From: Candidatus Magasanikiibacteriota bacterium
GTDB taxonomy: Bacteria; Patescibacteriota; Patescibacteriia; Magasanikbacterales; UBA922
Direction: 5' to 3'
Length of the DNA stretch: 45,828 nt
NCBI GenBank assembly: GCA_043825135.1
Contig: JBDRSF010000010.1
Span: 1-45,828 of the forward strand
Part shown: positions 6,225 to 37,721 of the stretch, in pieces
Layout of the letters: the number at the start of each line of letters is the position of its first letter
Position numbering within the stretch: the stretch's first letter is position 1
The notes under the pieces: generated by a model
What the model was told of the DNA's origin: nothing
The model's database searches: none
What the model saw: only the letters and a program-made list of their open reading frames with translations
Made by a program: the position numbers and the translations under genes

Positions 6225-6250
6225 TTATTCCTTAATCCTTAATCCTTATT
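6225..6250. repeat. 7-bp tandem array (TCCTTAA-like)
   Basis: ttattccttaatccttaatccttatt at the stop codon of the upstream gene; reverse complement resembles the TAAGGAA array at 30521. Confidence 0.6.
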
Positions 6251-15416: not shown

Positions 15417-16313
15417 CTAAGCCATGTTCCTAAGTTTGTTTATTCGTTCCTCAATAGGTGGGTGTGTAGAAAACAACTTATTCATACCCTTGCCTTTCAA
15501 AGGATTGGAAATAAACAAATGGGCCGTGGCAGTTGAGGCGGTTTGAAGTGGTTGATTTGACTTAGATATTTTTTCCAAAGCTCTGGCTAGCCCTTCTGGA
15601 TAACGAGTGAGAAGTGAGCCAGAAGCGTCAGCCAGATATTCACGCTTGCGAGAGATGGCGAGTTTGATTAGCTCGGCAATAACGGGGGAGAGGATTAGTA
15701 AAACTAAACCAACCACCATTATGATTGTGCCGAGTTGTCCACCACCTTTATCACTAGAGCTTTTTCTACCACCACCCATACCGAATAATCTAGCACGAAA
15801 AAACCAACTAGAAAGCAAGGCAATCGTTCCAACCAAAACAACAACAATGGTCATCAGACGAATGTCATAGTTTTTAATATGTGATAATTCATGAGCAATC
15901 ACGCCTTCAAGTTCTTCATTTTCTAATGCAGAAATAATTCCCGTTGTTAGTGCAATTGATGCATGTTCTGGATCACGGCCAGTCGCAAAGGCGTTCATGG
16001 CCGGAGAATCAATAATATAAACCTTTGGTGTAGGTGTGCCGGCAGTGATGCAGAGATTTTCTACCATTCTGTACACATACGGATTATCTTCTTTAACAAT
16101 GGCTTTGGCACCAGTTGAAGCTAGTGCAATTTTATCACCTTTGAAATAACTAGTCAGTGACATGACTAGTGATAATGTAATCGCGCCAATTAGATAGCCA
16201 TATCCATAGCCCATGTAAACACCAACAAAATAGCCTATTGCTATGATGAAGGCGATGAAGATGGCGACGAGGAGTAGAGTTTTGCGTTTATTTGAGTCAA
16301 TTTGATTATACAT
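15417..16313 (-). CDS. htpX: M48 zinc metalloprotease HtpX
   Basis: NAFATG, HELSH (HExxH), SRKREYLAD, STHPPIEERI. Confidence 0.95.
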   Translation of the reverse strand: MYNQIDSNKRKTLLLVAIFIAFIIAIGYFVGVYMGYGYGYLIGAITLSLVMSLTSYFKGDKIALASTGAKAIVKEDNPYVYRMVENLCITAGTPTPKVYIIDSPAMNAFATGRDPEHASIALTTGIISALENEELEGVIAHELSHIKNYDIRLMTIVVVLVGTIALLSSWFFRARLFGMGGGRKSSSDKGGGQLGTIIMVVGLVLLILSPVIAELIKLAISRKREYLADASGSLLTRYPEGLARALEKISKSNQPLQTASTATAHLFISNPLKGKGMNKLFSTHPPIEERINKLRNMA

Positions 16314-16354
16314 ACGAACTACGAAATGCTTACGAAATTACGAACTACGAACTT
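16313..16354. repeat. Left inverted arm (TACGAAC-type 7-mer array) of GxxExxY cassette 1
   Basis: tacgaactacgaaatgcttacgaaattacgaactacgaactt; 16328-16354 is the exact reverse complement of 16773-16799. Confidence 0.9.
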
Positions 16355-16763
16355 ATTCGTTCACCACTCTTTTTATAATTGCCCCTCCGTGTGTGAAACA
16401 TACTAAAAGTCCAAGTTTTAAATCAAGAGTTTCTAAATATTGTTTAGTTTGATCTATTATTTTTCTTGAAATAAATTCACCTCTTTTGATCTCAATTACG
16501 ATCTTATCTTCAACTAAGAAATCTAGAAAATATTTTCCAACTATTTCATTATCAAATTTTAGAGGCACATAGGCTTGTTCTATGAATTTAATTCCACTTT
16601 TTTCAAATCCGATCTTTATGGCTTTTTGATAATATTTTTCTTGGTGACCACCACCAAGTTGTTTGGCAACCTCAAAAAATATACCATTAAGTTTAAAACT
16701 TAATTCAGGATAAAACAAGTCTTTTCTTCTTATTATGTATTTTTTCCCTCCTTTATTGTCCAT
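16353..16763 (-). CDS. GxxExxY protein (PD-(D/E)xK nuclease fold)
   Basis: GHQEKYY motif; LDFLVEDKIVIEIK. Confidence 0.92.
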   Translation of the reverse strand: MDNKGGKKYIIRRKDLFYPELSFKLNGIFFEVAKQLGGGHQEKYYQKAIKIGFEKSGIKFIEQAYVPLKFDNEIVGKYFLDFLVEDKIVIEIKRGEFISRKIIDQTKQYLETLDLKLGLLVCFTHGGAIIKRVVNE

Positions 16764-16772
16764 AAATATTAC

Positions 16773-16815
16773 AAGTTCGTAGTTCGTAATTTCGTAAGCT
16801 GTTCGTCAGTTCGTA
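16773..16815. repeat. Right inverted arm of GxxExxY cassette 1
   Basis: aagttcgtagttcgtaatttcgtaagctgttcgtcagttcgta. Confidence 0.9.
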
Positions 16816-16820
16816 AATAA

Positions 16821-17384
16821 TTATAATTTAACCTCGACCACTTCTTTCTCACTCTCATCAGCTTCAAAAAATTCATATTTCTTGAAATGCAACATTCCAG
16901 CTACAGTGTTGTTTGGGAAGGTTTCGATCTTGGTGTTGAAATCACGAACCATGCCATTGTAGAATCTGCGAGAGGCTTGAATCTTGTTTTCAGTATCAGA
17001 TAATTCGTCCATTAATTGCATGACACTTTGGTTAGCTTTTAGATCTGGATAAGCTTCTACTGCGATTTGTAATTTACCAAGCATGCCACCAAGTAGGTTT
17101 TCTGCATTGGCGAGTTCTCCAGTATTACCAGATTCTTGAGCAGTCATGGCCTGTGATCTGGCTTTGGTAATATTTTCTAATAGCTCTCTTTCGTGGGTCA
17201 TATAGCCACGAACACTGTTAATTAAGTTTGGAATTAGATCATGACGTCTTTTTAGTTGGACATCAATGTCACTCCAGGCTTCTTTGGTGCGGTTATTTAG
17301 CTTGACCAGGGCATTATAGACGCCGATGATCCAGAGGACTACGAGGACGACTATGGCGAGAATTGCGACGTACATTCCTGACAT
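16821..17384 (-). CDS. lemA: LemA family protein
   Basis: N-terminal TM, AWSDIDVQLKRRHDLIPNL, EAYPDLKAN, ENKIQASRRFYN. Confidence 0.95.
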   Translation of the reverse strand: MSGMYVAILAIVVLVVLWIIGVYNALVKLNNRTKEAWSDIDVQLKRRHDLIPNLINSVRGYMTHERELLENITKARSQAMTAQESGNTGELANAENLLGGMLGKLQIAVEAYPDLKANQSVMQLMDELSDTENKIQASRRFYNGMVRDFNTKIETFPNNTVAGMLHFKKYEFFEADESEKEVVEVKL

Positions 17385-17549
17385 ATTATTATAGATTAAA
17401 CCAGCTAGAAACGTGTTAGTATCTGACTGGTATTTTTAATTATCGTTGTTTTTTAGTTATATAGGCAATATAACACCCCTTGATTAAAAGTATTGTTTAG
17501 TTTATACTATTACTATTATTCTACCTTAATTTATATATACTAGTCAACT

Positions 17550-18728
17550 ATGTTTACAGTAATTATCTTTATCCTAATTCTCGGTCTTCTTGTATTAGTT
17601 CATGAGTTTGGTCATTTTATCACTGCTCGTAAGTCAGGTATGAAAGTTTATGAGTTTGGTTTTGGGTTTCCCCCACGAGCTTTTGGTGTTTACAAAGATC
17701 CTGAGACTGGTAAATTTGTTTGGGTTTGGGGCAAAGGCAAGAGTAGTTTGAAAAAGACAGTATCTGGTACAGAAAACAAAGAAGATTTTGGTTTTCCTTC
17801 AACGATTTATTCTTTTAATTGGTTACCTTTGGGTGGGTTTGTACGCATTAAGGGTGAAAATGGCGAGGATGCCAATGAACCAGATAGTTTTGGTTTTCAA
17901 AAACCTTGGAAGAGAATTATAGTATTGGTATCTGGTGTTACCATGAATATTGTATTAGCCGGAATCTTGCTTTCTTTTGGATTTATGGTTGGTTTACCAA
18001 CTGACATGTCAGCTGGGGCTGACGATAGTGCAATTATTGTTCAGGAGCCACAAGTTTTGGTGCAAATGGTGGATAAAAATTCCCCAGCCGAGACAGCAGG
18101 ATTGAAATTAGGTGATGCCATTCTCCGCATTGATGATACTGATATAATAGGTTCAAATCAACTGGTTTCTTATGTTCGGGAAAATAATGATAGAGAATTA
18201 AATTTATTAGTATTAAGAAGTGGTGAGGAAATGAATTTTGCGATAACCCCAGAGATTGTAAAAAGTGGTGAAGCTAATGCTAGATTAGGAGTGATGTTAG
18301 CAGATGCCGCTGTCATTCGTTATCCTTGGTATCTAGCTTTTGGTAAAGGTTTTGTGGCAGCATTTTGGGGCTTTATAAATATTTTTGTTACCTTTTATTA
18401 TCTAATCAAATATTTGATTTTAGGACAAGGTTTGGTCTATGATGTGTCTGGTCCAGTAGGAATTGCCAAAATAGTGGGTGATAGTGCTAGATTAGGTATT
18501 AGCTATTTAATAAATGTGACAGCTATGTTGTCGTTATCTTTGGCAGCTATTAATATTTTACCAATTCCAGCTCTTGACGGTGGTAGAATTTTATTTATTC
18601 TAATAGAAAAAATTATCCGCCGACCAGTACCAATGAAATACGAACAAATTGCCCACACTCTCGGTTTTGTTTTGCTGATGCTTTTGATTGTGGTTGTAAC
18701 TGCTCGCGATGTGATTGGATTATTTTAA
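17550..18728 (+). CDS. rseP: RIP metalloprotease RseP (M50, PDZ)
   Basis: HEFGH, PDZ domain, NILPIPALDGG. Confidence 0.94.
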   Translation: MFTVIIFILILGLLVLVHEFGHFITARKSGMKVYEFGFGFPPRAFGVYKDPETGKFVWVWGKGKSSLKKTVSGTENKEDFGFPSTIYSFNWLPLGGFVRIKGENGEDANEPDSFGFQKPWKRIIVLVSGVTMNIVLAGILLSFGFMVGLPTDMSAGADDSAIIVQEPQVLVQMVDKNSPAETAGLKLGDAILRIDDTDIIGSNQLVSYVRENNDRELNLLVLRSGEEMNFAITPEIVKSGEANARLGVMLADAAVIRYPWYLAFGKGFVAAFWGFINIFVTFYYLIKYLILGQGLVYDVSGPVGIAKIVGDSARLGISYLINVTAMLSLSLAAINILPIPALDGGRILFILIEKIIRRPVPMKYEQIAHTLGFVLLMLLIVVVTARDVIGLF

Positions 18729-18748
18729 GTTTTTTTATTAAGATTTTT

Positions 18749-19162
18749 ATGTCTAATGAGCCAACAGATATAAAAGAAGGATTACTTCCTAAAAAAGTAA
18801 GAGAGCTTGTGGATAAATTTCTCCCCGATGAATTTTTTGATGAAGTAGAGGGTTTTGATACGAGTTTTAAGACAGGAAATACAATTAGAAAAGAAGAAGT
18901 AAGAAGGATGTTGGTAGATATGTTTTCTGATGAAAAAGAAAGAATGGATGATGCTAATGGTAAATATATGGAATTGCGAGTTGCTTTTCCTCATATTGCA
19001 GGAAGACCAAATCCAATTATCGCTCGTTTAGGATGGATATGTAAAGAGCTATCTAAGAGAGATTGGAAAAGATCATATGGAGAATCTATTGAGGGTATTA
19101 ATGTGGGAAAAGATAATGAAGTGGCTTATGCTGATTTTGGAAATAAAAATGGAAAAAAATAG
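18749..19162 (+). CDS. Hypothetical protein
   Basis: 137-aa ORF filling the rseP-pheS gap on the same strand. Confidence 0.65.
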   Translation: MSNEPTDIKEGLLPKKVRELVDKFLPDEFFDEVEGFDTSFKTGNTIRKEEVRRMLVDMFSDEKERMDDANGKYMELRVAFPHIAGRPNPIIARLGWICKELSKRDWKRSYGESIEGINVGKDNEVAYADFGNKNGKK

Positions 19163-19177
19163 ATAAAATTATTTTAT

Positions 19178-20209
19178 ATGAAAGCACAATTAGAAAAATT
19201 AAAAAAAGAATTTATAAAAGGCCTTAATGAAATCAAGGATGTTTTGCAGTTGGAAGAGTTGGAACAAAAGTTTTTTTCCCGCAAATCCGGTGAGATGACC
19301 GAGGCCATGAAGAGCTTGAAAAAACTATCAGGCGATGCCAAAAAAGAATTTGGTAAACTTGCTAATGAGGTAAAGAGAGAGTTAGAAGATTTGTATAGTA
19401 AAAAGAAGCAGGAAATTGAGAAAAATAAAATGGGAGATTTGGCTGATACAGAATGGATTGATGTTACTCAACCAAAGTTGCCTAAAGCAGAAAAAGGTCA
19501 TCTACATCCAGAGACTTTAGCACTAAGGGAGATGGAAGAGGTGGCAAGGAATATGGGATTTTTGGTTGAAGATGGACCAGAATTGGATAGTGACTATTTT
19601 TGTTTTGAAGCTTTAAATATTCCAGATAGTCATCCAGCTAGAGACTCGCAAGATACTTTTTATATCAAAGATCATCCGGAGTTATGCATGCGCCCTCATG
19701 TTTCTAATATGCAAGTTAGGTCGCTTCAAAAGTATGGCGCACCACTTAGAATTGCTTATCCTGGTCGTACATTTAGAAATGAAGCAACAGATGCTTCTCA
19801 TGATCACACTTTTTATCAGTTTGAAGCCTTGGTGGTGGATAAAGATATAAATGTTGGAAATTTGATTGGAATTATAAAAGAATTATTAGGTGGTTTGTAC
19901 AAGAAAGAGGTTGAGGTTCGTTTGCGTCCTGGATATTTTCCTTTTGTAGAACCCGGATTTGAGTTGGATATGAAATGTCTTATTTGCGAAGGTCAGGGCT
20001 GTGGTGCTTGTGGTCATGCTGGTTGGGTAGAGACTTTAGGCTGTGGTTTGATGCATCCGCGTGTTTTAGAAGCTGCTGGGCTCGATCCAAAAGAGTGGAG
20101 TGGATTGGCATTTGGTATGGGTCTTACTAGATTAGTTATGCAAAAATATAAAGTTGAAGATATACGGCATCTAAATAGTGGGGATTTGCGGTTTTTAAAG
20201 CAATTTTAA
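19178..20209 (+). CDS. pheS: Phenylalanyl-tRNA synthetase alpha subunit
   Basis: HPARDSQDTFY, FRNEATDASH, YFPFVEP, GLAFGMG, DLRFLKQF. Confidence 0.97.
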   Translation: MKAQLEKLKKEFIKGLNEIKDVLQLEELEQKFFSRKSGEMTEAMKSLKKLSGDAKKEFGKLANEVKRELEDLYSKKKQEIEKNKMGDLADTEWIDVTQPKLPKAEKGHLHPETLALREMEEVARNMGFLVEDGPELDSDYFCFEALNIPDSHPARDSQDTFYIKDHPELCMRPHVSNMQVRSLQKYGAPLRIAYPGRTFRNEATDASHDHTFYQFEALVVDKDINVGNLIGIIKELLGGLYKKEVEVRLRPGYFPFVEPGFELDMKCLICEGQGCGACGHAGWVETLGCGLMHPRVLEAAGLDPKEWSGLAFGMGLTRLVMQKYKVEDIRHLNSGDLRFLKQF

Positions 20210-20212
20210 AAA

Positions 20213-20278
20213 CACAGATTTGTACATATTTTTCACAGATTTGACATATCACAGATTATACAAATTTAACAGATTTGT
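20213..20278. repeat. Left inverted arm (ACAGATT-type array, 7 units) of GxxExxY cassette 2
   Basis: cacagatttgtacatatttttcacagatttgacatatcacagattatacaaatttaacagatttgt. Confidence 0.85.
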
Positions 20279-20281
20279 TTT

Positions 20282-20695
20282 ATGGAGGAAAATTTTTTAG
20301 AGAAAGAATTGAGTTATAATTTAGTAGGATGTTTTTATAAAGTTAGAAATTTGTATGGGGTGGGACATAGAGAGAAGTTTTATGATGATGTTTTGGGAGA
20401 AATTTTGGAATATGAGAAATTGTCCTTTGTAGATAAACCAAGAATTCCACTGTATTCTGTATTAAGTGGTAGACAGGTTGGTTATAATATTCCGGATAAG
20501 TTGGTAGAAAATAAAATAATTGTGGAAATAAAAGCAAAGCCATTTTTTACAAAAGATGATATCAATCAAGCTACGGAGTATTTAAAGATAACCGAGTGTG
20601 AAATATTATATTTAGTTAATTTTAGCGAGCCAGAGTTTAGACCAAGGAGATTCATCTATACAAATAATCGCAAACCATTTTTAAATCTTAAATAA
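20282..20695 (+). CDS. GxxExxY protein (PD-(D/E)xK nuclease fold)
   Basis: GHREKFY motif; PDKLVENKIIVEIK; LYLVNF. Confidence 0.9.
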   Translation: MEENFLEKELSYNLVGCFYKVRNLYGVGHREKFYDDVLGEILEYEKLSFVDKPRIPLYSVLSGRQVGYNIPDKLVENKIIVEIKAKPFFTKDDINQATEYLKITECEILYLVNFSEPEFRPRRFIYTNNRKPFLNLK

Positions 20696-20754
20696 TTTGT
20701 CAGATCTGTAATATTTGTGATTTGTAAAATCTGTAAAGATCTGTCAAATCTGTT
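20694..20754. repeat. Right inverted arm (AATCTGT-type array, 7 units) of GxxExxY cassette 2
   Basis: aatttgtcagatctgtaatatttgtgatttgtaaaatctgtaaagatctgtcaaatctgtt; its reverse complement aligns unit-for-unit with the left arm. Confidence 0.85.
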
Positions 20755-20762
20755 ACTAATAT

Positions 20763-23282
20763 ATGTTATTAAGTTACAATTGGCTAAAAAATTACGTTGA
20801 TTTACCAGACTCTCTCTCACCAGAAGAGTTGGCTTTGAAATTGACAATGAGTACTGTTGAAGTTGAGGGTGTAGAAAAACAAGGCAAAGATCTTGAAAAT
20901 ATTGTAGTAGGACTTGTTAAGAAAGCTGAGAAACATCCTGATGCGGACAAATTGCAAGTTTGTACTGTTTACGATGGTGTGGAAGATTATCAAGTTGTTT
21001 GTGGTGGTTCAAATGTGATAGAAGGAATGAAAGTGGCTTTTGGAAAAATTGGTGCCAAAGTAAAGTGGCATGGTGAAGGTGAGCTTATTGAGCTTACTAA
21101 AGCAAAAATTCGTGGAGTAGAATCATTTGGTATGATTTGTGCATCTACTGAGATTGGTTTGGGTGAGATGTTTCCAGTGAAAGATGGGAAAGAAATCTTA
21201 GATTTGAGCTCCCACCACCCCGGCCTAAAGGCCACCCCTCCTCGGGCAGGAGGGGACAATATTGGTATGCCTTTGGCAGAGTTTCTAGGCTTAAATGATG
21301 TCATAATCGATATTGACAATAAATCCATGACGCATCGTCCAGATTTGTGGGGGCATTATGGTATGAGTAGAGAAGTGGCAGTGCTTTATCATAAAGAATT
21401 GGTGGAATATAATCCACCTTTGATTAAAAAAATAAAGAAAGCTGGAGGGACAGGTCGCGACCTGTCCGTACACGACCTGTCCGTACAAGTGCAAGATACA
21501 AAATTATGTCCGCGATATATGGCAGTAGTGATTGATGGGGTGAAGATCGTGCCGTCGCCAGAGTGGATGCAGAAGAAGTTAATTGCGGTTGGTTTGCGTC
21601 CGATTAATAATATTGTTGATATTACTAATTATATTTTGTTTGATCTTGGTCAGCCACTCCATGCTTTTGATAAATCAGCAATCAGCAATCAGCAATCAGC
21701 AGTCACGATTATTGTTAGGCGAGCCAAAAATGGTGAAGAATTTGTCACTCTAGATGATAAAAGCCACAAATTAACGAATGACGATTTGGTAATTGCTGAC
21801 AGTGAAAAAGCCGTGGCTTTGGCTGGGGTGATAGGTGGTTTAAACAGTGAAGTAAAAGATGATACTATAACTATAGTTTTTGAATCAGCTAATTTTGATG
21901 CACTGAATATCAGACGAACAGCGACTCGTTTGGGAATAAGAACTGATTCATCAGCTCGGTTTGAAAAGAGTTTAGATCCAAATAATTGTGAATTAGCTTT
22001 GAAACGTGCGGTTGAATTGACATTAGAGCTATGCCCAAATGCAAAAGTTGTAAGCAATGTTGTTGATGAAGCCAATTTTAATTTGAATCAAGGGCCAATA
22101 GAATTATCATTAGAATTTTTAAATAAAAAGATTGGTGTTGAATTGGAGAAAAAAGAAGTTGTAAAGATTTTGGAATCGCTTGGGTTTGGCATAAAAGAAA
22201 AGAAAGATGTATTATTGGTTGCTATACCAACTTGGCGTGCGACTAAAGATATTTCTATTCCTGAAGATTTAGTTGAAGAAGTCGCTAGAATTTATGGCTA
22301 TGGCAATATTCCAACAGTCTTACCAACTTTTCCAATTACACCACCAGAGAGAAATGAATTAAAGTTGCTGGAGAGAAAAATCAAAAATATATTAAGCTTG
22401 GAATTTGGTTTTAATGAAGTTTATAATTACTCTTTTATTTCACCAAAGTGGATTGAAATATTAGAACTAGATAAGGAAGATTTTATTGAACTAGATAATC
22501 CAATTGCAAAAGACAGACCATATTTGCGCCGAGGTCTGTGGCCAAATTTGTTAGAAAATGTAGAGAAAAATTTACATGAGTTTGATCAAGTAAAAATATT
22601 TGAAATTGGTCAGGTGTTTGATAAGCTTAACCCTGGTCAAAGAGCAAGTGATAATGGTGATGATTTGTTACCAAGGCAAGATTTGATGTTGGGAATGGTG
22701 TTTGCTGGTAAGGGATTTGATAAGCCGTTTTTTGAATTATCATCGGCTATGTCAGGAATTTTAGACCATTTTAATTGCACTTATGAATTAAAAGCTAAGA
22801 GTGAGATGGATGGAGAATTTATTCATCCGGGTCGTATAGCTGAGATAGTAGTTAATGGAGAAGTAATTGGTGCGGTGGCTGAGATACATCCAATTACATT
22901 AAACAAGATTGGCTTGGACGAGAGCACAGCGGTATTAGAAATTAGTTTACAAAAACTAGTAGAGCAAGTATTAGAAAAAAATAATTATCAAAAACTTTCA
23001 GTCTATCCTTCTGTCGAGCGGGATGTGGCTTTTCTAGTAGACAAAAAAATTTCTAATACAGAAATAATTGAGAAGCTAAAAAATATTGATGGATTAGTGA
23101 GAAATGTTGAATTGTTTGATGTTTATGAAGGTGATAAAGTTGGTGCTGGAAAAAAGAGTATGGCTTATCGTATTACATATCGTAGTGATGATAAGACTTT
23201 GGAGTCGGTTGAGGTTGATAAGGTTCACGATAAACTGGTTAAAATATTGGAGAAAGAATTTAGTGCTGAGGTGAGGAAATAA
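20763..23282 (+). CDS. pheT: Phenylalanyl-tRNA synthetase beta subunit, with three repeat-derived in-frame segments
   Basis: HPDADKL, RGVESFGMIC, NNIVDITNY, EDLVEEVARIYGY, C-terminal anticodon-binding domain (RDVAF...LFDVYEG). Confidence 0.97.
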   Translation: MLLSYNWLKNYVDLPDSLSPEELALKLTMSTVEVEGVEKQGKDLENIVVGLVKKAEKHPDADKLQVCTVYDGVEDYQVVCGGSNVIEGMKVAFGKIGAKVKWHGEGELIELTKAKIRGVESFGMICASTEIGLGEMFPVKDGKEILDLSSHHPGLKATPPRAGGDNIGMPLAEFLGLNDVIIDIDNKSMTHRPDLWGHYGMSREVAVLYHKELVEYNPPLIKKIKKAGGTGRDLSVHDLSVQVQDTKLCPRYMAVVIDGVKIVPSPEWMQKKLIAVGLRPINNIVDITNYILFDLGQPLHAFDKSAISNQQSAVTIIVRRAKNGEEFVTLDDKSHKLTNDDLVIADSEKAVALAGVIGGLNSEVKDDTITIVFESANFDALNIRRTATRLGIRTDSSARFEKSLDPNNCELALKRAVELTLELCPNAKVVSNVVDEANFNLNQGPIELSLEFLNKKIGVELEKKEVVKILESLGFGIKEKKDVLLVAIPTWRATKDISIPEDLVEEVARIYGYGNIPTVLPTFPITPPERNELKLLERKIKNILSLEFGFNEVYNYSFISPKWIEILELDKEDFIELDNPIAKDRPYLRRGLWPNLLENVEKNLHEFDQVKIFEIGQVFDKLNPGQRASDNGDDLLPRQDLMLGMVFAGKGFDKPFFELSSAMSGILDHFNCTYELKAKSEMDGEFIHPGRIAEIVVNGEVIGAVAEIHPITLNKIGLDESTAVLEISLQKLVEQVLEKNNYQKLSVYPSVERDVAFLVDKKISNTEIIEKLKNIDGLVRNVELFDVYEGDKVGAGKKSMAYRITYRSDDKTLESVEVDKVHDKLVKILEKEFSAEVRK

Positions 23283-37655: not shown

Positions 37656-37721
37656 ATGATAGATGATAAATGATAGATGATAACCTGCTAAAAAATATCA
37701 TCTATCATTTATCATATATCA
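37656..37721. repeat. Inverted pair of 7-bp tandem arrays (TGATARA x4), no cargo gene
   Basis: atgatagatgataaatgatagatgata ...13 nt... tatcatctatcatttatcatatatca; 25/26 paired. Confidence 0.85.

What the first reader, a model, noticed from the sequence alone, without database searches (positions are those of the whole stretch)
20213..20754. Second GxxExxY cassette with a different repeat unit, splitting pheS-pheT
Seen: a divergent GxxExxY paralog flanked by seven ACAGATT-like units on the left and seven inverted units on the right, with mirrored spacing (short fourth unit in both arms). The arms fill almost all of the intergenic space: 3 nt from the pheS stop, 8 nt from the pheT start. The architecture matches cassette 1 but the unit sequence differs. 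Inference: each paralog is paired with its own repeat, as a recognition site or as a product it generates. This would be an undescribed mobile-element class and a possible source of the scattered 7-mer arrays.
Basis: partly seen in the sequence, partly recalled or inferred. Interest (0 to 1): 0.85.

Follow-up and report, generated by a model that had tools for sequence, protein, structure and literature searches.

The report
Nuclease gene framed by mirrored heptamer arrays
A small nuclease gene wedged between pheS and pheT is bracketed by mirror-image arrays of a 7-base unit. Gene-less copies of the same arrays are scattered over the genome, which looks like an undescribed kind of small mobile DNA element.

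Summary
ORF 20282-20695 is an intact GxxExxY/PDDEXK_3 nuclease. It lies between seven ACAGATT-like units (20213-20277) and seven inverted units (20694-20754) with mirrored spacing. Together they fill a pheS|pheT gap that is 1-8 nt in 17 of 28 relatives.

- **Recurrent architecture.** All five GxxExxY genes of this 1.17 Mb genome have it, each with its own unit. So do most relatives and 21 of 75 cross-phylum loci (control 1 of 141).
- **Second cargo.** The unrelated PF05635 "23S IVS protein" genes have it too (21 of 30).
- **Gene-less copies.** Palindromes of the same units sit at other gene junctions (about 22 sites for ACAGAT). They are insertion polymorphisms within the genus and are most numerous in the three genomes carrying this cassette.
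- **Shared core.** GxxExxY units share the core RCNRAT, pointing inward; PF05635 units do not.
- **No RNA signal.** Arm mismatches show no G-U bias (61 vs 51), which argues against an RNA-stem function.
- **Horizontal transfer.** The cassette protein is more conserved between genomes (80%) than pheS/pheT (56/50%), implying transfer into the same site.

Best reading: a REPIN/RAYT-like or transposon-like selfish element whose PD-(D/E)XK nuclease acts on its own DNA repeats. That mechanism is inferred, not shown. I found no description in print.

The parts
19178..20209 (+). pheS (host gene upstream of the insertion)
   Evidence: ORF. Its C-terminal part finds pheS next to pheT in 28 relatives.
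20213..20277 (+). Left arm: seven forward ACAGATT-like units with spacers 3,4,2,0,2,2
20282..20695 (+). GxxExxY / PDDEXK_3 nuclease gene, 137 aa. G28-E31-Y34 and D72, E82, K84 are present.
   Evidence: Pfam and NCBIfam hits. Invariant catalytic columns in alignment A1. AF2 model with pLDDT 91.6 and a PD-(D/E)XK fold.
20694..20754 (-). Right arm: seven inverted units with mirrored spacing. The innermost unit overlaps the stop codon.
20763..23282 (+). pheT (host gene downstream). It normally starts 1-8 nt after the pheS stop.
16313..16351 (+). Cassette 1, array of TACGAAC units. It abuts the start codon of the neighbouring gene at 16313.
   Evidence: 100% identical over 42 nt to a gene-less hairpin on contig C19.
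16353..16763 (-). Cassette 1, second GxxExxY gene (136 aa, 33% identical to the finding's protein)
16775..16816 (+). Cassette 1, inverted array (GTTCGTA units)
   Evidence: The RNA/DNA fold pairs both arms, z = -7.3.
37656..37715 (.). Gene-less hairpin of ATGATAR / TATCATY units. This unit family has a PF05635 cassette on contig C52.

Best explanation
The cassette is the gene-bearing member of a family of small selfish palindromic DNA elements. Its arms are inward-pointing arrays of a 7-nt site (core RCNRAT, here ACAGATT). I infer that these sites are read as DNA by the PD-(D/E)XK nuclease encoded between them. Gene-less palindromes built from the same units are its non-autonomous partners at other gene junctions.

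The nearest analogy is a RAYT gene flanked by its REPs, with REPINs spread over the genome. Another is a transposase with subterminal binding sites and its MITEs.

The element entered the pheS|pheT junction, and its lineage has reached that same junction in other lineages by horizontal transfer.

**Shown:** the anatomy, its recurrence, empty sites, gene-less copies, unit conservation, family-specific unit grammar, and the lack of an RNA wobble signature.

**Inferred:** that the nuclease binds or cuts at the units, and that this drives copying or movement.
For: 1. **Intact enzyme.** PF13366 and TIGR04256 hits. E31, D72, E82 and K84 are invariant in 22 relatives. The model is confident and has a PD-(D/E)XK fold.
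2. **Recurrent architecture.** It is seen in 5 of 5 own-genome copies. By an exact-6-mer test 14 of 31 relatives' loci have it, and by arm alignment 18 of 24. Across phyla 21 of 75 loci have it, against 1 of 141 shifted controls.
3. **Insertion.** The pheS-pheT gap is 8 nt or less in 17 of 28 genomes, including same-genus G001 at 2 nt. It holds this cassette with the same unit in G000, G006 and G039. A metagenome contig from a relative about 90% identical joins the pheS end directly to the pheT start.
4. **Horizontal arrival at the same site.** Between G006 and G039 the cassette protein is 80% identical, while pheS is 56% and pheT 50%.
5. **Gene-less copies.** ACAGAT tandem pairs number 64, 46 and 26 in the three genomes with the cassette, and 23, 17 and 10 in G009, G002 and G014. 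The other 35 genomes have 0-5. In G039 the copies are palindromes with the cassette's own arm layout and no ORF. In G000 there are about 22 other sites. A cassette-1 arm is 100% identical over 42 nt to a hairpin on another contig.
6. **Polymorphism.** Gene-less hairpins are present or absent between same-genus genomes at two junctions. Different unit families occupy the same junction.
7. **Family-specific polar site.** RCNRAT in the forward-left/reverse-right arrangement averages 5.25 per GxxExxY cassette (n=24) and 0.76 per PF05635 cassette (n=29). The opposite arrangement gives 0.88 and 0.79. Across phyla the related motif occurs at 18.1 per kb in flanks and 3.2 per kb further away. Orientation is 155:49 on the left and 53:145 on the right.
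8. **Concerted change.** The unit changes in both arms together at one orthologous locus.
9. **No G-U excess.** Arm mismatches are 61 G-U-type vs 51 A-C-type, p = 0.40, which fits DNA-level symmetry.
Against: - PF05635 genes encode a helical bundle, not a nuclease, yet sit in the same architecture (21 of 30). This includes genomes where no GxxExxY was found. A nuclease is therefore not needed to keep such arms.
- Association with gene-less copies is imperfect. G009 has 323 TACGAA pairs, but the one cassette of this type that I examined in G009 has TACAAAT units (3 of its 9 GxxExxY matches were not examined). G023 has 81 pairs and no PF13366 match.
- G001 has six cassettes, but only 0-1 arrays per 20 kb in the 40 kb sampled.
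- Paralogs within one genome are only 22-33% identical, so gene-bearing copies have not transposed recently.
- No target-site duplication was seen.
- The RCNRAT motif was defined after looking at the data. Related genomes are not independent.
- There is no biochemical or expression evidence.
Confidence: 0.5

Rival explanations
1. IVS-like RNA device. The arms exist to pair in the pheS-pheT transcript. The stem folds the insert out of the way, or is cut by RNase III as in 23S rRNA intervening sequences, so the host operon still works. The repeat structure would be incidental.
For: - The MFE and centroid folds pair the left arm with the right arm around the whole ORF (z = -3.0 for this cassette, z = -7.3 for cassette 1).
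- The arms abut the stop and start codons.
- Sister cassettes carry PF05635, the family found in rRNA intervening sequences. Short rRNA insertions in CPR bacteria are thought to be RNase III-type IVSs (passages of PMC11270868; abstract of PMC4990558 in the listing).
Against: - There is no G-U over A-C excess among 112 transition mismatches in 41 cassettes (61 vs 51), and there are 179 transversions.
- A stem needs no internal repetition, no family-specific unit core and no fixed polarity.
- Gene-less palindromes of the same units exist at many junctions.
- One cassette is kept in frame inside recG, where cutting the stem would destroy the message.
- Rfam gives no hit.
Confidence: 0.13
2. Free-standing homing endonuclease. 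The nuclease cuts the empty pheS|pheT junction of cassette-free genomes and is copied in by repair. The arrays are accessory and are not what the enzyme recognises.
For: - A nuclease ORF sits exactly between two conserved, normally abutting genes, with empty sites in most relatives.
- The same site is occupied in three divergent genomes, and the cassette protein is far more similar than the flanking genes.
- Two of the matches in relatives contain stop codons, as the homing cycle predicts.
- From recall, not seen here: PD-(D/E)XK homing endonucleases are known, for example I-Ssp6803I.
Against: - It does not explain the arrays, their family-specific core, or the gene-less copies that track the cassette.
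- PF05635 cassettes behave the same way without a nuclease.
- Other unrelated ORFs also occupy the pheS|pheT gap in four genomes, so the site may simply tolerate insertions.
Confidence: 0.17
3. Host punctuation. Heptamer arrays and hairpins are the organism's own terminators or translation signals at gene junctions, like the TAACTGA repeats upstream of start codons in Beggiatoaceae. The small ORFs are passengers that happen to lie between two such signals.
For: - The genome has 515 arrays against 43-53 in shuffles, and 300 are mostly intergenic.
- Arrays often end at start codons.
- Heptamer arrays ending 1 nt before start codons are described in other bacteria (passages of PMC4679880).
Against: - Arrays are sparse in 13 stretches sampled from 11 related genomes without these cassettes (0-4 per 20 kb, against 8.8 genome-wide here).
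- They are present or absent at orthologous junctions within a genus, and different units fill one junction.
- The arms of each ORF are one palindrome with the ORF at its centre.
- Units are specific to the cargo family.
- The scan for promoter- and terminator-like sites is at chance level.
Confidence: 0.08

Closest known systems
REPIN-RAYT systems (REP-associated tyrosine transposases with their REP/REPIN repeats)
   Same: - One enzyme gene is flanked by inverted copies of a repeat.
- That repeat is also spread, gene-less and palindromic, over intergenic junctions of the same genome.
- Each enzyme lineage has its own repeat.
- The gene sits at a conserved locus.

Background comes from abstracts in the listing (PMC3337134, PMC3116915, 10.1101/2022.05.22.493013). 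This genome also has classical Y1_Tnp genes flanked by their own GC-rich hairpins.
   Different: - The enzyme is a 137-aa PD-(D/E)XK nuclease, not an HUH/Y1 transposase.
- The repeat is an array of 7-nt units, not a single GC-rich palindrome of 20-40 nt.
- There are signs of horizontal transfer into the same site.
- A second, non-enzymatic cargo family (PF05635) uses the same layout.
23S rRNA intervening sequences carrying a PF05635 ORF
   Same: A small ORF is framed by inverted repeats and inserted into a transcribed, essential context. Sister cassettes in these genomes carry exactly that protein family with the same array architecture.
   Different: - This cassette lies between protein genes, not in rRNA.
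- It encodes a nuclease.
- Its arms are multi-unit arrays.
- There is no wobble signature of an RNA stem.
Free-standing homing endonuclease genes
   Same: The nuclease gene is inserted precisely between conserved genes. Its distribution is patchy with empty sites, and the same site is filled in divergent genomes.
   Different: Homing genes have no flanking repeat arrays and no dispersed gene-less copies.
Intergenic heptamer arrays (TAACTGA repeats of Beggiatoaceae, cyanobacteria, Bacteroidetes)
   Same: Tandem 7-nt units at gene junctions, often ending next to a start codon (passages of PMC4679880).
   Different: Those are described as one-sided direct repeats of a single unit with no associated gene. 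Here the arrays are paired, inverted, of many unit families, and each family has one ORF-bearing copy.
Rickettsia palindromic elements (recalled; no paper seen)
   Same: Palindromic selfish DNA that can sit in frame inside protein genes, as the recG case does here.
   Different: RPEs carry no ORF and are not built of short unit arrays.

Membership tests
GxxExxY protein / PDDEXK_3 (TIGR04256, PF13366) | Profile match above the curated cut-off | tested here: met
   PF13366 scores 71.9 bits (cut-off 22). TIGR04256 scores 69.6 bits (cut-off 35)..
GxxExxY protein / PDDEXK_3 (TIGR04256, PF13366) | GxxExxY motif and the D...ExK catalytic triad | tested here: met
   G28, E31 and Y34 are present. E31, D72, E82 and K84 are invariant in the 22-sequence alignment A1.
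GxxExxY protein / PDDEXK_3 (TIGR04256, PF13366) | PD-(D/E)XK fold | tested here: met
   The AF2 model has pLDDT 91.6. The best Foldseek matches are Cas4 SSO0001, lambda exonuclease and Hjc, at E about 1e-3 and TM of 0.55 or less. No close solved relative turned up by sequence.
REPIN-RAYT | Enzyme is an HUH/Y1 (IS200-like) transposase | tested here: not met
   The only family hits at E<=0.001 are PF13366 and TIGR04256. Y1_Tnp genes exist elsewhere in the genome with different repeats.
REPIN-RAYT | Gene flanked by inverted copies of its repeat, with gene-less copies dispersed in intergenic DNA | tested here: met
REPIN-RAYT | Repeat is a short GC-rich imperfect palindrome (REP) | tested here: not met
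   The arms are AT-rich arrays of seven 7-nt units.
23S rRNA intervening sequence element | Located in a 23S rRNA helix | tested here: not met
   It lies between pheS and pheT.
23S rRNA intervening sequence element | Flanking inverted repeats able to form a stem | tested here: met
   The folds pair the arms.
23S rRNA intervening sequence element | Excision by RNase III | not testable with these tools
   No RNA run holds the stretch. The wobble test gave no RNA signal.
IS/MITE transposon | Recognised transposase (DDE, HUH, serine or tyrosine recombinase) in the autonomous copy | tested here: not met
   The only ORF is the PD-(D/E)XK protein.
IS/MITE transposon | Target-site duplication | tested here: inconclusive
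   None was evident in three filled-versus-empty comparisons. The flanks are AT-rich and the element ends are blurred by degenerate units.
Free-standing homing endonuclease | Cuts the empty allele of its own insertion site | not testable with these tools
   Only the population pattern was tested, namely empty sites and same-site occupancy with incongruent similarity. That pattern was met.

The most novel reading that the evidence does not exclude
GxxExxY proteins are the enzymes of a bacteria-wide, so far unrecognised class of mobile or REPIN-like DNA elements. A minimal PD-(D/E)XK nuclease reads inward-pointing arrays of a 7-nt RCNRAT site, and each clade has its own heptamer specificity. PF05635 'IVS proteins' would head a sister class. 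This would explain where rRNA intervening sequences and many unexplained intergenic heptamer arrays come from. It would also offer a small nuclease family with naturally diversified short-site specificity.
Probability: 0.3. Interest if true: 0.92.

Novelty: new variant of a known kind. Interest (0 to 1): 0.8.

Why it matters
GxxExxY (PF13366) and PF05635 are large families with no known function that turn up between housekeeping genes in many phyla. This work links them to a defined DNA architecture: inverted arrays of a family-specific heptamer, with gene-less palindromic copies.

- That gives both families a testable role.
- It explains a large share of the odd heptamer arrays in this genome.
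- It points to a repeat-enzyme partnership that parallels REPIN-RAYT but uses different chemistry.
- It bears on annotation. Such cassettes split operons, fuse in frame to recJ and a pilin-like gene, and sit inside recG.

Tried and rejected
- **Rfam** on 15800-21300 at E<=1: no hit.
- **PADLOC:** only weak Csn2-like noise.
- **PDB by sequence:** nothing convincing. The best nuclease hit was T7 endonuclease I at E 0.056.
- **Promoter and terminator scan:** at chance level.
- **Exact ACAGATT word count** over the window: not enriched. The clustering is what carries the signal.
- **Sequencing runs:** no RNA holder listed. All runs laid were contigs, so they say nothing about transcripts, ends or rare excision products.
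- **Classical RAYTs or reverse transcriptases as the mover of the arrays:** considered and set aside. Both gene types exist in the genome. The RAYT-like genes are flanked by different, GC-rich hairpins.
- **CRISPR-like array:** considered and rejected. The units are 7 nt with spacers of 0-4 nt.
- **Target-site duplication:** not found.
- **Other ORFs in the pheS|pheT gap of four genomes:** one weak 2H/LigT-like match, the others without a family.
- **Supplements:** none were opened. Table S4 of PMC11270868 and the supplements of PMC4679880 might list repeat contexts that I could not see.
- **Literature searches for a prior description:**. None ties PF13366, TIGR04256 or PF05635 to flanking repeat arrays. 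Subscription-only papers were not searched.

Full report
**What is there.**
The window is contig C10 of a 1.17 Mb, 99.85% complete genome in 77 contigs. Named look-alike loci and the sequencing runs point to a groundwater Patescibacteria-type (CPR) organism.

- pheS ends at 20209 and pheT starts at 20763. A 137-aa ORF lies between them at 20282-20695.
- The ORF matches PF13366 PDDEXK_3 (7e-20) and TIGR04256 GxxExxY (2.7e-19), as searches show.
- Its G28-E31-Y34 motif is present. E31, D72, E82 and K84 are invariant in 22 relatives.
- An AlphaFold model built on that alignment is confident (pLDDT 91.6).
- The model resembles only generic PD-(D/E)XK nucleases: Cas4 SSO0001, lambda exonuclease and Hjc, with E about 1e-3 and TM of 0.55 or less.
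- There is no solved close relative by sequence.

**The arms.**
- Seven 7-nt units (ACAGATT with variants ACATATT, ACATATC, ACAAATT) fill 20213-20277. Seven inverted units fill 20694-20754.
- Spacers read from the outside inward are 3,4,2,0,2,2 and 2,3,2,0,2,2.
- The degenerate word ACADATY occurs 7 and 6 times in the two 60-nt arms, on opposite strands. The whole window holds 89 on both strands.
- The arms are 77% complementary over 44 nt.

**It is an insertion.**
Both genes were found in 28 relatives (30 loci were examined and 2 lacked the upstream gene). The pheS-pheT gap sizes are:

| Gap | Genomes | Notes |
|---|---|---|
| 1-8 nt | 17 | includes same-genus genome G001, at 2 nt |
| 38-57 nt | 4 | |
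| 393-871 nt | 7 | three hold this cassette, four hold unrelated ORFs |

- The cassette-bearing genomes are G000, G006 (another genus) and G039 (another family). Their cassette proteins are 66-80% identical to each other and carry the same CACAGAT unit, but the unit numbers differ.
- The four other large gaps hold unrelated ORFs.
- A contig in another metagenome joins a pheS end directly to a pheT start that is about 90% identical. Contigs show presence only.
- Between G006 and G039 the cassette protein is 80% identical, while the pheS and pheT parts are 56% and 50%. The similarity order also disagrees with that of the host genes.

I read this as horizontal arrival of one cassette lineage at the same junction. 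The alternative, that the small protein simply evolves more slowly, cannot be excluded with three genomes.

**The architecture recurs.**
- All five PF13366 genes of this genome are framed by inverted arrays, each with a different unit: ACAGATT, TACGAAC, ACGGATG, GCAGATT and ATCCGAAT.
- PF13366 was found in 10 of the 41 genomes searched (G000 and 40 relatives).
- By an exact-6-mer test, 14 of 31 loci have the same word at least twice on the left and its reverse complement at least twice on the right.
- I then dropped ORFs under 95 aa or over 170 aa. Arm-to-arm alignment clearly beat shuffles in 41 of the 54 cassettes left, which is 18 of 24 GxxExxY and 23 of 30 PF05635.
- I also sampled 80 loci from Bacteroidota, Ignavibacteria, Chloroflexota, Acidobacteriota, Planctomycetota and other phyla. 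They encode proteins 60-82% identical to one of this genome's paralogs.
  - 75 of them had enough flank to analyse. Of these, 21 pass the 6-mer test, against 1 of 141 shifted control positions.
- Two of eight plasmid-borne genes from named organisms (Bernardetia and Bacteroides finegoldii) show the arrays clearly.

**A second cargo.**
- PF05635 occurs in 20 of 41 genomes, including all 10 that have PF13366.
- 21 of 30 PF05635 loci pass the same 6-mer test, again with locus-specific units.

The layout is therefore not a private feature of the nuclease. This is the main fact against a simple "nuclease plus its site" story.

**Gene-less copies.**
- The genome holds 515 arrays of at least three copies of a 6-mer spaced 6-22 nt, against 43-53 in shuffles. 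Of these, 34 pairs form short-loop hairpins.
- Each ORF cassette's unit recurs at other junctions.
  - ACAGAT recurs at about 22 other sites, TACGAA at 8, ACGGAT at 14, GCAGAT at 5 and CCGAAT at 4.
  - The PF05635 units recur at 7-39 sites.
- Of the 515 arrays, 17 are cassette arms, 54 fall to GxxExxY unit families, 163 to PF05635 families and 281 are unassigned.
- ACAGAT tandem pairs across the 41 genomes number 64, 46 and 26 in the three genomes with this cassette. G009, G002 and G014 have 23, 17 and 10. The remaining 35 genomes have 0-5. The reversed-pattern control gives 0-4.
- In G039 the copies are palindromes with exactly the cassette's arm layout and nothing in the centre.
- One arm of cassette 1 is 100% identical over 42 nt to a hairpin on contig C19. 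The finding's arms match other hairpins at 86-90% over 37-52 nt.

The second unit tested is less tidy. TACGAA pairs number 323 in G009, although the one cassette of this type that I examined in G009 has TACAAAT units. They number 81 in G023, where no PF13366 was found. G006, G000 and G002, which do carry the cassette, have 79, 33 and 23. G001 has six cassettes but almost no arrays in the 40 kb sampled.

**The hairpins come and go.**
- At one junction, G001 has stop and start nearly abutting. G000 has a 97-nt TACGAAC hairpin, G002 another palindrome and G014 a GAGATAA hairpin.
- Upstream of rplB, G002 has 17 nt and G014 31 nt. G000 has an ACAGAT hairpin and G001 a TTAGGT hairpin.
- I saw no target-site duplication.

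**RNA or DNA?**
- Folded as RNA, both window cassettes pair arm with arm around the ORF (z = -3.0 and -7.3).
In the 41 good arm alignments there are 61 G-U-type mismatches, 51 A-C-type mismatches (binomial p = 0.40), 179 transversions and 78 gap columns.
- The units have a cargo-specific grammar and a fixed polarity.
  - RCNRAT, forward on the left and reversed on the right, averages 5.25 per GxxExxY cassette (n=24).
  - It averages 0.76 per PF05635 cassette (n=29). The opposite arrangement stays at the chance level in both.
- In the cross-phylum set a related motif reaches 18.1 per kb in 150-nt flanks, against 3.2 per kb further away. Orientation is 155:49 on the left and 53:145 on the right, and 57 of 74 loci have at least three hits.
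- Both motifs were chosen after seeing the data, so they need a pre-registered repeat.
- At the orthologous cassette-1 locus the unit is TACGAAC, TACGAAA, TTCGAAT or TACAAAT in different genomes, changed in both arms together.

A repeated, polar, protein-family-specific short site in inverted arrays is what subterminal binding sites of a DNA element look like. It is not what an RNA stem needs.

**Tolerated almost anywhere.**
- In G009 a cassette lies in frame inside recG, between helicase motifs II and III. Both arrays are translated and recG continues to its normal end.
- In G009 and G002 a cassette is fused in frame to the end of recJ.
- In G000 and G001 one runs in frame into a pilin-like gene.

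**Verdict.**
The most likely account (about 0.5) is a selfish palindromic element whose PD-(D/E)XK nuclease acts on its own inward-pointing heptamer sites. It has gene-less partners and works like REPIN-RAYT or a transposase-MITE pair, but it fails the membership tests of both.

| Rival | Weight |
|---|---|
| Homing at the empty junction | 0.17 |
| IVS-like RNA stem | 0.13 |
| Host punctuation | 0.08 |

What the PF05635 cassettes do, and who moves them, is unexplained.

**Literature.**
- Only three papers in the library contain "GxxExxY". I read the matching passage in one, and the other two appear by title or listing to be on other topics.
- PF13366 is listed as function unknown in a table row of PMC3424549.
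- PF05635 is noted in CPR rRNA insertions (PMC11270868) and between cas genes (PMC3936711), without mention of repeat arrays.

Noticed in passing
L023 (G009:C25), minus strand, locus 547-2064: A GxxExxY cassette with CGCGGAC-type arrays sits in frame inside recG, between helicase motifs II and III. It forms one ORF of at least 505 aa with no stop. The same recG also holds a small in-frame GC-rich palindrome that recurs just downstream and in the neighbouring RAYT-like ORF.
   Followed up: partly
L125 (G009:C30) 102-2327; L018 (G002:C34): Full-length recJ is fused in frame to a GxxExxY domain through a translated repeat array, in two genomes. Together with the recG case and a radA neighbour in Bacteroides finegoldii (L115), three repair genes are hosts or neighbours.
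   Followed up: partly
L005 (G000:C18:24150-27479); L126 (G001:C21) 1356-2663: The ATCCGAAT-unit cassette runs in one open frame (337 aa and 435 aa) into a type IV pilin-like gene. If translated through, the prepilin leader would include the whole cassette.
   Followed up: no
G000:C70:4801-5381; G000:C50:6318-6838 (L063, L062): Two cassettes have AAAGTC/GACTTT arms. One holds a PF05635 gene. The other holds a 115-aa ORF with no Pfam hit and no similarity to the first, which may be a third cargo type.
   Followed up: partly
window 30520-30566, 6229-6248; genome-wide: Arrays of TAAGGAG/TAAGGAA units, which resemble repeated Shine-Dalgarno sequences, are among the commonest families (about 39 sites). 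They have a PF05635 cassette on contig C46.
   Followed up: partly
window 21673-21701: Four tandem AATCAGC units lie inside the pheT coding sequence, so the array is translated.
   Followed up: no
G000:C2:9619-10068, C18:9011-9502, C65:4647-4991 (L140-L142): Three Y1_Tnp (IS200/RAYT-like) genes. Those on C2 and C18 are flanked by their own GC-rich hairpins. This is a classical REP-RAYT arrangement in the same small genome, separate from the heptamer arrays.
   Followed up: partly
L034 (G014:C3), pheS-pheT gap of 772 nt: Another genome has a 231-aa ORF with weak 2H/LigT-like phosphoesterase matches in the same pheS|pheT gap. G036, G007 and G030 hold other unrelated ORFs there. The junction collects insertions.
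   Followed up: partly
L146-L225: One GxxExxY clade is 60-67% identical across at least eight named lineage groups (Bacteroidota, Chloroflexota, Acidobacteriota, Planctomycetota, Gammaproteobacteria and others). This implies wide horizontal spread, with CACGGAT-type units travelling along.
   Followed up: partly
L130 (G002:C46) about 2125-2295; L005 right flank: A different, longer palindromic repeat of about 170 nt, with terminal inverted ends of about 11 nt, occurs in G002 and G000. It is probably another MITE family.
   Followed up: no
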